DNA of 64,000 nucleotides, from assembly GCA_944392545.1 (NCBI GenBank), contig CALXWW010000008.1, positions 323 to 64,322 on the forward strand, written 5' to 3'. This DNA comes from an uncultured Clostridia bacterium (lineage in GTDB: Bacteria > Bacillota > Clostridia > TANB77 > CAG-508). Position numbers and translations under genes: made by a program. Below are positions 38,247 to 38,527 of this stretch, piece by piece. The notes under the pieces were generated by a model, which was not told the origin of the DNA, made no database searches, and saw only the letters and a program-made list of their open reading frames with translations. The first letter of the stretch is position 1; every line of letters starts with the position of its first letter.

Positions 38247-38369
38247 ATGGGAAATTGTTGTTGTAATAATAGCGAACTACTATGGTTTATAATCCTATTC
38301 TTACTACTTTTCTGTTGCGGAGGTAACAACTGTTGTAGTAACTCATGTAACAATTCTTGTGGTTGTTAA
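38247..38369 (+). CDS. YjcZ-like tiny Cys-rich single-TM sporulation peptide (40 aa, MGNCCCNNSELLWFIILFLLLFCCGGNNCCSNSCNNSCGC)
   Basis: Strong RBS (AAGGAGGT, 6 nt spacing). Cys/Gly/Asn-rich ends flank a hydrophobic core. Not in the ORF track (<60 aa). Confidence 0.55.
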   Translation: MGNCCCNNSELLWFIILFLLLFCCGGNNCCSNSCNNSCGC

Positions 38370-38407
38370 TTACATTAATTTCTTTAATTTGAAAGGAGGG
38401 GAATTAT

Positions 38408-38527
38408 ATGCCAGAAAATAGAGGTTGTGGATGTGGCTTTGGTTTTGGTGACGATTGCTGCTGGATAATAATCGTATTAATATTAATATGCTGCTGTTGT
38501 GGTGGTAACAGAGGAGGATGCTGCTAA
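38408..38527 (+). CDS. Second YjcZ-like tiny Cys-rich TM peptide (39 aa, MPENRGCGCGFGFGDDCCWIIIVLILICCCCGGNRGGCC)
   Basis: Strong RBS (AAAGGAGGGG); tandem paralog of the preceding peptide. Confidence 0.55.
   Translation: MPENRGCGCGFGFGDDCCWIIIVLILICCCCGGNRGGCC

What the first reader, a model, noticed from the sequence alone, without database searches (positions are those of the whole stretch)
38247..38527. Two unannotated tandem tiny Cys-rich TM peptides (YjcZ-like) between mutL and tRNA-Gln
Both 39-40-aa ORFs have near-ideal RBSs and the architecture CxCC/GCGC - hydrophobic core - CCCC/GC, typical of the tiny-TM YjcZ family of sporulation proteins. They fall below the 60-aa ORF cut-off and are antisense to a spurious 62-aa ORF in the track. 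The Cys-clustered composition is shared with the tail of the 168-aa membrane protein at 16292..16798.
Basis: partly seen in the sequence, partly recalled or inferred. Interest (0 to 1): 0.55.

Follow-up and report, generated by a model that had tools for sequence, protein, structure and literature searches.

The report
Paired Cys-rich tiny sporulation membrane peptides
Two real, conserved but unannotated genes for 40-residue cysteine-packed membrane peptides sit beside mutL in uncultured gut Clostridia, carry a late-sporulation (sigma-K-type) promoter, and form a new small-protein family that resembles the YjcZ sporulation family but fails its membership tests.

Summary
ORF A (38247..38369, 40 aa) and ORF B (38408..38527, 39 aa) are genuine protein-coding genes.

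- **Conservation:** the pair recurs in the same order in 52 of 80 MutL-anchored loci from related gut Clostridia MAGs, and in distant lineages where it is not next to mutL.
- **Selection:** dN/dS is 0.06 (A) and 0.04 (B). B's exact protein is encoded by 13 DNA variants whose 20 variable sites are all third codon positions.
- **Paralogy:** A and B are paralogs (hhalign 96%). Other lineages encode them fused in one protein, which suggests a heteromer.
- **YjcZ claim:** curated membership fails. TIGR01732 and PF09680 give no hit at E<=10 for the window peptides or 80 relatives, while control peptides score 1e-9 to 1e-14. Profile-profile similarity of B to real YjcZ proteins is borderline (61%; 5 of 200 architecture-preserving shuffles reach it).
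- **Sporulation idea:** this gains support. A conserved upstream block, GTAAC-N16-[C/A]ATAnTATA, matches published C. difficile SigK promoters (median 14.4 bits against 5.1 for SigE, 63 of 63 loci). The window also encodes SpoIVB and SpoVT.

Most likely this is a two-gene SigK-type unit for membrane micro-proteins of the maturing spore. The family has no curated model and no name in any source. Expression and function remain untested.

The parts
38158..38203 (+). Conserved promoter block TTGTAACC-N-GAATAATATATACCATACAAAAGAAC. The -35 GTAAC is at 38160..38164, followed by a 16-nt T-rich spacer and the -10 AATAATATA at 38181..38189. The transcription start near 38194 is inferred, not mapped.
   Evidence: GTAAC is invariant in 60 of 60 unique orthologous upstream regions. 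The -10 reads [C/A]ATAnTATATA, starting with C in B-only genomes. The block scores 11.8 bits under a PWM built from published C. difficile SigK promoters against 4.1 under SigE, ranking 16th of 127,934 window positions. Orthologs have a median of 14.4 against 5.1, with SigK higher in 63 of 63.
38233..38239 (+). Ribosome-binding site of gene A (AAGGAGG, 7 nt before the ATG)
   Evidence: Read directly from the sequence. A GGAGG or GGGAGG core is kept upstream of A in the orthologs listed.
38247..38369 (+). Gene A, a 40-aa Cys-rich single-pass membrane peptide (MGNCCCNNSE-LLWFIILFLLLF-CCGGNNCCSNSCNNSCGC)
   Evidence: Present in 52 loci, with 39 unique proteins from 50 unique DNAs. The core E-[IL]-LWFIILFLLLF-C is invariant and is retained in distant lineages L087, L089, L099 and L100. 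dN/dS is 0.064. It is not called by the gene finder in a near-identical ENA contig and is absent from the protein collections.
38392..38401 (+). Ribosome-binding site of gene B (AAAGGAGGGG, with GGAGG 8 nt before the ATG)
   Evidence: Read directly from the sequence. GAAAGGAGGG or GAAAGGGGGG is conserved upstream of B.
38408..38527 (+). Gene B, a 39-aa Cys-rich single-pass membrane peptide (MPENRGCGCGFGFGDD-CCWIIIVLILICCCC-GGNRGGCC) and paralog of A
   Evidence: 13 DNA variants encode the identical protein, and all 20 variable sites are at codon position 3. dN/dS is 0.042. There are 273 database relatives, the best at E=5e-16, none with a meaningful Pfam domain or a name, and 107 representatives among 1.84 billion proteins. 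hhalign of A against B gives 96.4%, E=1e-9, with 0 of 200 shuffles reaching the score. The AlphaFold2 model has one helix at residues 16-31 and disordered flanks.
38615..38650 (.). Probable bidirectional intrinsic terminator hairpin between gene B (+) and the convergent 43-aa ORF (-), with an A-run before it and a U-run after it
   Evidence: RNA fold of 38600..38665 gives dG -14.9 kcal/mol, z = -4.7, and 0 of 200 shuffles fold as well. The consensus scan missed it because the stem is AT-rich.

Best explanation
This is a conserved two-gene transcription unit, with promoter, gene A, gene B and terminator, that encodes two paralogous Cys-rich peptides of about 40 residues, each with one short membrane helix. 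It is most likely transcribed by the late mother-cell sporulation sigma factor (SigK type). I infer that the two peptides insert side by side in a membrane of the sporulating cell, most plausibly the outer forespore membrane, and pair through their exceptionally conserved helices. That would place dense thiol clusters at both membrane faces, which could cross-link (by disulfide) or coordinate metal with the Cys-rich outer layers of the maturing spore. Shown here: both genes are coding and under strong purifying selection; A and B are paralogs; gene order and promoter are conserved; the promoter matches the SigK motif; sporulation genes are present in the genome; no curated family model matches. 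Inferred: SigK-dependent expression, A-B heteromer formation, the target membrane, and the chemical role of the thiols.
For: Coding and selection. Paralogy. Heteromer hint: single proteins in other lineages carry an A-like unit followed by a B-like unit (P0161, P0175, P0160, P0180, P0184, P0027). The order A then B is fixed, with 31-80 nt between them and no room for a second promoter. Helix constraint: LWFIILFLLLF is invariant even where MutL is about 60% identical, and it persists in lineages where the pair is no longer beside mutL. Promoter: GTAAC is invariant in 60 of 60 and lies 16+/-1 nt from [C/A]ATAnTATA. Published C. difficile SigK promoters carry GTAACA at -35 (cotE, cotA, cdeC/CD1067, feoA and others) and [C/A]ATAnnnTA at -10, whereas SigE promoters carry GTAATA-type boxes. 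PWM scores favour SigK in 63 of 63 orthologs, with a median of 14.4 bits against a background 99.9th percentile of 7.6. The TT that a sigma-A TTGACA box would need is not invariant. Sporulation capacity: intact SpoIVB (PF05580, 3e-84) and SpoVT lie in the window, and YqfD and YabP lie near a distant pair. Coherence: the best SigK-type site in the whole 64-kb window (16.2 bits) precedes the other Cys-cluster membrane protein at 16292..16798. Precedents: B. subtilis yjcZ is assigned to the SigK regulon (PMC517825), and the Cys-rich exosporium proteins CdeC and CdeM are proposed disulfide cross-linkers, with NGNNGGNNNNC repeats in CdeM (PMC6101409).
Against: There are no expression data of any kind. 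The promoter assignment rests on a motif in a genome of about 25-30% GC, where AT-rich matches are common; the window's own site ranks only 16th in the window. Its -10 begins AATA rather than CATA, although that variant occurs in published C. difficile SigK promoters. A sigma-A reading (TTGTAA-17-AATAAT, 9 of 12) is not excluded. I could not verify that sigK itself is present in these genomes. Twenty of 80 MutL-anchored loci lack the pair within the 0.2-4 kb of upstream sequence held for them, so it is either dispensable or mobile in position. Cys-richness is not deeply conserved: distant A homologs have 0 N-side and 2 C-side Cys. This weakens any mechanism that depends on the full thiol clusters. 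The predicted helix is only 16 residues at moderate confidence.
Confidence: 0.55

Rival explanations
1. The peptides are true but highly divergent members of the YjcZ (TIGR01732/PF09680) sporulation family, homologous by descent and not merely similar in build.
For: The architecture is shared with real YjcZ proteins: a Gly-rich N-terminus ending in GFG, a hydrophobic core of about 15 residues, then C-x-C and GG. hhalign of B against YjcZ gives 61% probability over 17 columns. That score of 21.8 exceeds the mean of architecture-preserving shuffles (15.6+/-2.8). Both yjcZ (PMC517825) and this unit are linked to SigK. Distant B-like members with few Cys and GFGGFG tails look more YjcZ-like.
Against: No hit to either curated model at E<=10 for 2+37+43 sequences, while controls score far above the cut-offs. 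The nearly invariant YjcZ core FALIVVLFILLIIVG is not present; here it is WIIIxLILI or LWFIILFLLLF. Five of 200 shuffles reach the B-YjcZ score, and the reversed profile scores 16.2. A against YjcZ is 7%. An exhaustive profile search of 1.84 billion proteins returned 107 hits, and none of those inspected has the YjcZ core.
Confidence: 0.15
2. The unit is not sporulation-specific. It would be a sigma-A- or stress/ECF-sigma-driven pair of small membrane proteins with a thiol-based role in growing cells, such as membrane-anchored metal buffering or redox sensing, or an accessory subunit of a membrane complex.
For: A sigma-A-like match TTGTAA-17-AATAAT exists. TGTAAC also resembles ECF (SigX-type) -35 boxes (my own knowledge). 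The neighbours are housekeeping genes: mutL, miaA, eno, groEL. The Cys content of 25% is in the metallothionein range. One 813-bp contig fuses B to a CsoR-type metal repressor.
Against: The invariant positions are GTAAC, not TTG. No CGTC- or CGAC-type ECF -10 is present. The PWM match to SigK is consistent across 63 divergent loci, including perfect CATAnTATA forms. The genome keeps sporulation genes. The CsoR fusion is a singleton on a short contig, one of several obvious chimeras (P0097, P0155, P0158, P0159).
Confidence: 0.2
3. They are type I toxin-like or otherwise membrane-damaging small hydrophobic peptides, controlled by an antisense RNA.
For: They are tiny hydrophobic tandem peptides. 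A sigma-70-like site lies on the opposite strand at 38431..38403.
Against: That antisense TATAAT lies in the RBS-ATG spacer of B, whose sequence is not conserved. Both genes have strong, accessible RBSs. The position is chromosomal and stable across species with MutL down to about 60% identity. There are no relatives on viral contigs and no Lys/Arg-rich tail typical of such toxins. Purifying selection includes the non-hydrophobic flanks.
Confidence: 0.03
4. They are precursors of ribosomally synthesised, post-translationally modified Cys-rich peptides (ranthipeptide/SCIFF-, sacti- or thiopeptide-like).
For: They are short, very Cys-rich, tandem paralogs.
Against: No radical-SAM, cyclodehydratase, lanthionine or protease/exporter gene lies next to the pair in any context examined. 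The most conserved part is a membrane helix, not a leader or core arrangement. SCIFF and other RiPP models in NCBIfam and Pfam gave no hit.
Confidence: 0.03
5. They are chance ORFs in an intergenic region, or the region is transcribed only as non-coding or antisense RNA.
For: Gene finders skipped A, and A's exact sequence is absent from protein databases.
Against: Substitutions are confined to the third codon position, dN/dS is 0.04-0.06, the RBSs are conserved and the reading frames are intact in more than 50 species-level genomes. No Rfam family other than the tRNA matches. The antisense ORF is not conserved.
Confidence: 0.01

Closest known systems
YjcZ family sporulation proteins (NCBIfam TIGR01732 'tiny_TM_bacill'; Pfam PF09680 YjcZ_2), mainly Bacillales
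   Same: They are 30-50 aa with one hydrophobic core of about 15 residues, a Gly-rich N-terminus ending in GFG, and Cys/Gly just after the core. B. subtilis yjcZ is in the SigK regulon (PMC517825), and the unit here has a SigK-type promoter. The function of YjcZ is equally unknown.
   Different: There is no match to either curated HMM (against controls). The core sequence differs (FALIVVLFILLIIVG against WIIIVLILI or LWFIILFLLLF). Cys density is far higher (25% against 0-3 Cys). An acidic residue plus Trp caps the helix. The arrangement is an obligate-looking A+B pair of two distinct subfamilies. The hosts are Clostridia. Remote homology is only borderline.
Cys-rich spore-surface morphogenetic proteins: C. 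difficile CdeC (CD1067) and CdeM (CD1581), B. subtilis CotY/CotZ
   Same: They have high Cys content and a proposed role in disulfide cross-linking of outer spore layers. CdeM has Asn/Gly/Cys repeats (NGNNGGNNNNC) much like the tails of A and B (PMC6101409). cdeC has a SigK promoter of the form GTAACA-N17-CATAGTAT (PMC7438776 Table S6), the same type as here.
   Different: Those are soluble proteins of 160-405 aa without a membrane helix. No sequence similarity was detected (no Pfam or NCBIfam hit). The peptides here are ten times smaller and membrane-embedded.
Small sporulation membrane peptides SpoVM (26 aa) and CmpA (37 aa) of B. subtilis (my own knowledge)
   Same: They are micro-proteins made in the mother cell that act at the outer forespore membrane to anchor or police coat assembly. 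This is a functional precedent for a tiny peptide linking membrane and coat.
   Different: SpoVM is an amphipathic surface helix expressed under SigE, not a Cys-flanked transmembrane helix. There is no sequence relationship and no paired paralogs.
Eukaryotic and viral single-pass proteins with juxtamembrane poly-Cys (weak hmmscan noise hits: WBP-1, TMEM52, orthoreovirus p10)
   Same: They have a transmembrane helix followed immediately by a CC or CCC cluster. Some distant family members give sub-threshold hits to these models (best E 0.009 to 0.26).
   Different: All hits are far below the gathering thresholds and reflect composition only. In eukaryotes such Cys are palmitoylated, a modification system not known in Clostridia.

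Membership tests
YjcZ family (TIGR01732 / PF09680) | Score at or above the curated cut-off of the family HMM (TIGR01732 21.35 bits; PF09680 21 bits) | tested here: not met
   No hit at E<=10 for A or B, 37 B orthologs or 43 distant relatives. Positive controls score 37-54 bits.
YjcZ family (TIGR01732 / PF09680) | Conserved hydrophobic core motif F-A-L-I-V-V-L-F-I-L-L-I-I-V-G | tested here: not met
   In 25 real YjcZ proteins, F, V, V, F, L, L, I and G are invariant. A has LWFIILFLLLF and B has WIIIVLILI.
YjcZ family (TIGR01732 / PF09680) | Tiny size (<60 aa), single hydrophobic segment, Gly-rich N-terminal region | tested here: met
   A is 40 aa and B is 39 aa, each with one apolar run. B has GCGCGFGFG before the core; A's N-terminus is Cys/Asn-rich rather than Gly-rich.
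YjcZ family (TIGR01732 / PF09680) | Detectable remote homology by profile-profile comparison | tested here: inconclusive
   B against YjcZ gives 61% probability and score 21.8. Architecture-preserving shuffles give 15.6+/-2.8 and 5 of 200 reach the real score. A against YjcZ gives 7%.
YjcZ family (TIGR01732 / PF09680) | Expression late in the mother cell under SigK (as for B. subtilis yjcZ) | not testable with these tools
   Only the promoter motif could be examined, and it is SigK-like. No transcript data are available.
SigK-dependent promoter (Clostridia/Bacilli) | -35 element centred on AC (C. difficile: GTAACA) | tested here: met
   GTAAC is invariant in 60 of 60 unique loci and the next base is A or C. 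The same hexamer occurs in published SigK promoters.
SigK-dependent promoter (Clostridia/Bacilli) | Spacer of 16-17 nt, then -10 CATAnnnTA | tested here: met
   The spacer is 16+/-1 nt. The -10 is CATAnTATA in B-only genomes and AATAnTATA in A+B genomes. AATA variants occur in published C. difficile SigK promoters such as cotE, CD1891, CD2144 and CD3613.
SigK-dependent promoter (Clostridia/Bacilli) | Discrimination from the related SigE promoter type | tested here: met
   The PWM score is higher for SigK than for SigE in 63 of 63 loci, with medians of 14.4 and 5.1 bits. The training sets separate cleanly (15.9/3.4 against 2.4/12.6).
SigK-dependent promoter (Clostridia/Bacilli) | Host genome encodes the sporulation programme, including sigK | tested here: inconclusive
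   SpoIVB and SpoVT are intact in the window, and YqfD and YabP lie near a distant pair. sigK itself could not be looked for outside the 64-kb window.
SigK-dependent promoter (Clostridia/Bacilli) | Transcription abolished in a sigK mutant, with the start site at the predicted position | not testable with these tools
   This needs experiments or transcriptome data.
Type I toxin-antitoxin peptide | Conserved antisense or overlapping regulatory RNA with its own promoter, and sequestered translation signals | tested here: not met
   The only antisense promoter-like site lies in a non-conserved spacer. The RBSs are strong and conserved. No Rfam hit.
RiPP precursor (SCIFF/ranthipeptide, sactipeptide, thiopeptide) | Adjacent maturase (radical SAM, cyclodehydratase) and/or a family HMM hit | tested here: not met
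   No such neighbour occurs in five different genomic contexts, and there is no HMM hit.

The most novel reading that the evidence does not exclude
A and B form a hetero-oligomeric transmembrane 'rivet' in the outer forespore membrane. Its double-sided thiol clusters would nucleate disulfide or metal-thiolate cross-linking between membrane and coat or exosporium. This would be a new class of SigK-dependent spore-morphogenetic micro-proteins in uncultured gut Clostridia, invisible to standard annotation, with YjcZ as its distant and equally uncharacterised Bacillus counterpart. If so, it would give the first functional handle on the whole group of tiny sporulation TM peptides.
Probability: 0.2. 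Interest if true: 0.7.

Novelty: new variant of a known kind. Interest (0 to 1): 0.5.

Why it matters
Small proteins are systematically missed. Gene A is absent from a 15-billion-protein collection and was not called in a near-identical contig. Gene B exists in databases only as an unnamed peptide with no domain assignment. Together they are among the most strongly constrained sequences in this region: an 11-residue helix invariant across genomes whose MutL is about 60% identical. If the SigK assignment holds, the pair adds a membrane-embedded, Cys-dense component to spore envelope assembly in abundant, uncultured, small-genome gut Clostridia. For these organisms even the ability to sporulate, and hence their mode of transmission between hosts, is poorly documented. 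The conserved GTAACA-N16-CATAnTATA promoter would also provide a marker for predicting late sporulation genes in these MAGs. The comparison further sharpens what defines the YjcZ family and suggests that tiny sporulation TM peptides are a broader, polyphyletic or very divergent class.

Tried and rejected
1. Direct HMM assignment to YjcZ or any other Pfam/NCBIfam family: no hits. The only sub-threshold matches were generic TM segments (TatA, SecG, lipoprotein signal peptidase, WBP-1).
2. Exact-sequence and word-seeded searches for A: nothing found. B was one residue below the tool's length limit, so I used a 40-aa ortholog as the alignment leader.
3. Other sigma-factor readings of the conserved block. 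For SigG/SigF, GAATA and CATACnA are both present but only 8 nt apart. For SigH, GAAT is present but there is no AGGA -35, and the GAAT motif is absent in B-only genomes. For ECF/SigX, the TGTAAC -35 fits but there is no CGxC -10. For SigE, the PWM score is consistently lower. All four were rejected. Sigma-A is kept as a rival.
4. A phage or mobile origin: no relatives in viral contigs.
5. RiPP and toxin-antitoxin readings: no supporting neighbours or antisense elements.
6. The B-CsoR fusion protein P0144 as a clue to metal biology: it lies on a singleton 813-bp contig among several chimeric fusions, so it is not usable as evidence.
7. Literature on whether the lineage sporulates (searched under the order name TANB77, which I only guessed from memory for the 'Candidatus Merdicola' locus): uninformative.
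8. Exact-protein look-ups for two window genes found nothing.
9. Structure prediction gives only a single helix, so I did not attempt a fold search.
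Full report
**1. What is in the sequence**

The + strand between mutL (35711..38032, -) and tRNA-Gln(CTG) (38869..38943, -) carries two short ORFs exactly as described.
- A is 38247..38369: MGNCCCNNSELLWFIILFLLLFCCGGNNCCSNSCNNSCGC.
- B is 38408..38527: MPENRGCGCGFGFGDDCCWIIIVLILICCCCGGNRGGCC.

Each has 10 Cys (25-26%) clustered on both sides of a 14-17-residue apolar run. Each is preceded by a strong Shine-Dalgarno sequence: AAGGAGG 7 nt upstream of A, and AAAGGAGGGG with GGAGG 8 nt upstream of B. Almost every other gene in the 64-kb window is on the - strand. An AlphaFold2 model of B, built from its family alignment, shows one helix at residues 16-31 with disordered flanks (mean pLDDT 61). 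The Cys clusters therefore sit at the two helix ends.

**2. Are these real genes?**

Using the adjacent MutL as an anchor, I fetched 80 syntenic loci. All come from uncultured, small-genome (about 1.6 Mb), low-GC gut Clostridia MAGs, with MutL 52-87% identical.
- Both peptides recur on the strand opposite mutL, always A then B. A regex finds the pair in 50 loci and an HMM search finds it in 52 of 80. Seven loci have B only, one has A only, and 20 have neither within the upstream sequence held.
- B's exact 39-aa protein is encoded by 13 different DNA sequences. Their 20 variable sites are all at third codon positions. The same pattern holds for A: 1, 0 and 15 variable sites by codon position.
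- Pairwise Nei-Gojobori dN/dS against the window is 0.064 for A and 0.042 for B.
- The RBSs are conserved.
- The antisense 62-aa ORF (38370..38558) is not conserved: an antisense frame is open across B in only 18 of 55 orthologs.
- Rfam finds only the tRNA in this region.

These are protein-coding genes under strong purifying selection. They are nevertheless essentially unannotated. Neither exact sequence is in a 15-billion-protein collection. A has no word-seeded relatives there. In a near-identical ENA contig the gene caller called B but not A.

**3. The family**

A profile of B orthologs finds 273 proteins (best E = 5e-16) in 5.8 billion clusters. None has a meaningful Pfam domain or a name other than 'hypothetical protein'. 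An exhaustive HMMER search of 1.84 billion representatives finds only 107 at E<=1e-3, so the family is narrow.

Its signature is M-P-E-N-R-G-C-G, then FG, then D-D-C, then W-I-I-I-[8 hydrophobic]-(F)CCC-G-G, then C-C. A's signature is an acidic residue followed by [IL]-LWFIILFLLLF-C. That core is invariant in all 39 distinct A proteins.

A and B are paralogs: hhalign gives 96.4%, E = 1e-9, score 40.8, against 23.5+/-4.7 for region-preserving shuffles with 0 of 200 reaching it.

In the distant tail of the search, single proteins carry an A-like unit followed by a B-like unit, for example P0161 and P0175, and also P0160, P0180, P0184 and P0027. This Rosetta-stone pattern, the fixed gene order and the extreme conservation of the helices all suggest the two peptides act together in the membrane. 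That is an inference.

The pair also occurs in much more distant lineages where it is not beside mutL: L087/L088, L089 and L099/L100. There the helix core is retained but most Cys are gone. So the deep constraint is on the helix, and the Cys-richness is a feature of the lineage that includes this window. No relatives occur on viral contigs.

**4. Transcription unit**

The A-B spacer is 31-80 nt, too short for an independent promoter. Downstream of B, a hairpin at 38615..38650 (dG -14.9 kcal/mol, z = -4.7) is flanked by an A-run and a U-run. It lies between B and a convergent 43-aa ORF, consistent with a bidirectional terminator.

Upstream of A lies a conserved block. GTAAC is invariant in 60 of 60 unique sequences. 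It is followed by a T-rich spacer of 16+/-1 nt and then GAATAnTATATA. In genomes that have only B, the same block sits directly upstream of B and reads GTAACA-N16-CATAnTATA.

To avoid relying on memory, I took the experimentally supported C. difficile promoter lists (PMC7438776, Table S6).
- SigK promoters there carry GTAACA at -35 (cotE, cotA, cdeC/CD1067, feoA, CD1891, CD2144, CD3613 and others), a 16-17-nt spacer and [C/A]ATAnnnTA.
- SigE promoters carry GTAATA-type -35 boxes.
- PWMs built from the two lists separate their own training sets.
- The window's site scores 11.8 bits for SigK against 4.1 for SigE, ranking 16th of 127,934 positions in the window.
- The 63 unique orthologous promoters have a median of 14.4 (SigK) against 5.1 (SigE), with SigK higher in all 63. 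For comparison, the background 99.9th percentile is 7.6 and the SigK training median is 15.9.

The TT that a sigma-A TTGACA box would need is conserved less well than GTAAC. I considered SigG/F, SigH and ECF readings and rejected them on spacing or missing elements.

**5. Is sporulation plausible in this organism?**

Yes. The window encodes an intact SpoIVB peptidase (2782..3993, PF05580, E = 3e-84). From my own knowledge, in B. subtilis this forespore protease triggers pro-SigK processing. The window also encodes SpoVT (49298..49852, MazE_antitoxin plus SpoVT_C), whose upstream region has a SigF/G-like layout, GTATA-N18-AATAATA. A distant A-B pair lies 6-8 kb from YqfD and YabP. I could not check for sigK itself.

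The single best SigK-type site in the whole window (16.2 bits, GTAACA-N16-CATAAAATA, about 16827..16860 on the - strand) lies about 30-60 nt upstream of the 168-aa membrane protein at 16292..16798. Two Cys-cluster membrane proteins with the same promoter type make a coherent picture.

**6. The YjcZ question**

- TIGR01732 (26 positions, cut-off 21.35 bits) and PF09680 (24 positions, cut-off 21 bits) gave no hit at E<=10 for A or B, for 37 B orthologs or for 43 distant relatives.
- Two synthetic YjcZ-style control peptides, one with Cys/Gly-rich flanks, scored 8e-15 and 2e-9 against TIGR01732 and about 1e-13 against PF09680. The models are therefore present and sensitive.
- I retrieved 26 genuine YjcZ proteins and aligned 25 of them. 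They read M..GGYGGYGFGxS-FALIVVLFILLIIVG-CSCFxGG, which is the same build as B.
- hhalign of B against YjcZ gives 61% over 17 columns with score 21.8. Shuffling YjcZ columns only within the Gly-rich, TM and tail regions gives 15.6+/-2.8, with 5 of 200 reaching the real score. The reversed profile gives 16.2.
- A against YjcZ gives 7%.

Conclusion: the pair has the same kind of architecture as YjcZ and probably the same regulatory class. B. subtilis yjcZ is assigned to the SigK regulon (PMC517825). It is not a member by the curated definition, and homology is unproven.

**7. How it most likely works**

Shown: this is a conserved promoter-A-B-terminator unit encoding two paralogous single-helix peptides, with a SigK-type promoter motif, in a genome that retains sporulation genes.

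Inferred: the unit is expressed late in the mother cell. The peptides insert in the outer forespore or mother-cell membrane and pair through their invariant helices. The thiol clusters at both membrane faces cross-link to, or coordinate metal with, the Cys-rich outer spore layers. The precedents are the Cys-rich, SigK-dependent exosporium proteins CdeC and CdeM. These are proposed disulfide cross-linkers, and CdeM has NGNNGGNNNNC repeats much like the tails of A and B (PMC6101409).

My confidence is about 0.97 that the genes are real, about 0.95 that A and B are paralogs, about 0.7 for the SigK-type promoter, and about 0.3 for the specific cross-linking chemistry. Overall confidence in the statement as worded is 0.55.

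**8. Weaknesses**

- There are no expression data.
- The promoter call is motif-based in an AT-rich genome, and sigma-A is not excluded.
- sigK was not verified in these genomes.
- 20 of 80 anchored loci lack the pair near mutL.
- Cys-richness fades in distant homologs.

**9. Verdict**

This is a previously undescribed small-protein family, with no Pfam or NCBIfam model, no name, and no literature hit for its motifs. It belongs to the known kind 'tiny sporulation-associated membrane peptides', so I rate it a new variant of a known kind, of moderate interest.

Noticed in passing
window 38659..38790 (-): A third unannotated small gene lies convergent to B. It encodes a 43-aa, highly basic peptide, MIVDKKGNLFEDRRKNDGKSKPEKIKTERRKEDNKIVRKTKGK. 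Its N-terminus MIVDxxGxxFEDRRK and its DRRK repeats are conserved by tblastn in about 38 related loci. It was called as a gene in an ENA contig and has no Pfam hit. Its function is unknown.
   Followed up: partly
window 16292..16798 (-), with the promoter at about 16827..16860 (-): This 168-aa membrane protein has a weak, sub-threshold DUF2651 hit (24.3 bits against a 25-bit cut-off) and a Cys-cluster tail (NCNSCSN, NCCNIVNNCC, NCCCC). It is preceded by the best SigK-type promoter match in the whole window: GTAACA-N16-CATAAAATA, 16.2 bits. It may belong to the same late-sporulation Cys-rich set as A and B. Conservation of this promoter in orthologs was not checked.
   Followed up: partly
window 4114..16161 (-): Thirteen consecutive co-directional genes downstream of the 168-aa gene have no Pfam match above threshold (only one faint DUF2921 hit in the 695-aa protein). 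One of them is a 314-aa protein with an N-terminal TM segment. This is a sizeable block of unknown function beside SpoIVB.
   Followed up: partly
window 2782..3993 (-) and 49298..49852 (-): Intact sporulation genes are present: SpoIVB peptidase S55 with a PDZ domain (E = 3e-84) and SpoVT (AbrB-like N-terminus plus SpoVT_C). spoVT has a SigF/G-like upstream layout, GTATA-N18-AATAATA. This suggests that this small-genome gut lineage retains endospore formation.
   Followed up: partly
L101 (P0144), and P0097, P0155, P0158, P0159: Several database 'proteins' fuse part of peptide B to unrelated proteins: a CsoR-type metal repressor, a D12 methyltransferase fragment, an ABC ATPase fragment, and others. 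Those whose contigs were looked at sit on short metagenome contigs (813 bp for P0144, 1589 bp for P0097). They are probably assembly or gene-calling chimeras at this Cys/Gly-rich sequence.
   Followed up: partly
window 47237..48982 (+): A DDE transposase (PF01609) is one of the very few + strand genes in the window. It lies between the glycolysis genes and spoVT.
   Followed up: no
window 40425..41234 (-): A YezG-like (immunity-protein family PF04634) gene is embedded between gpmI and eno in the glycolytic gene cluster gap-pgk-tpi-gpmI-eno. This is an unusual position for such a gene.
   Followed up: no
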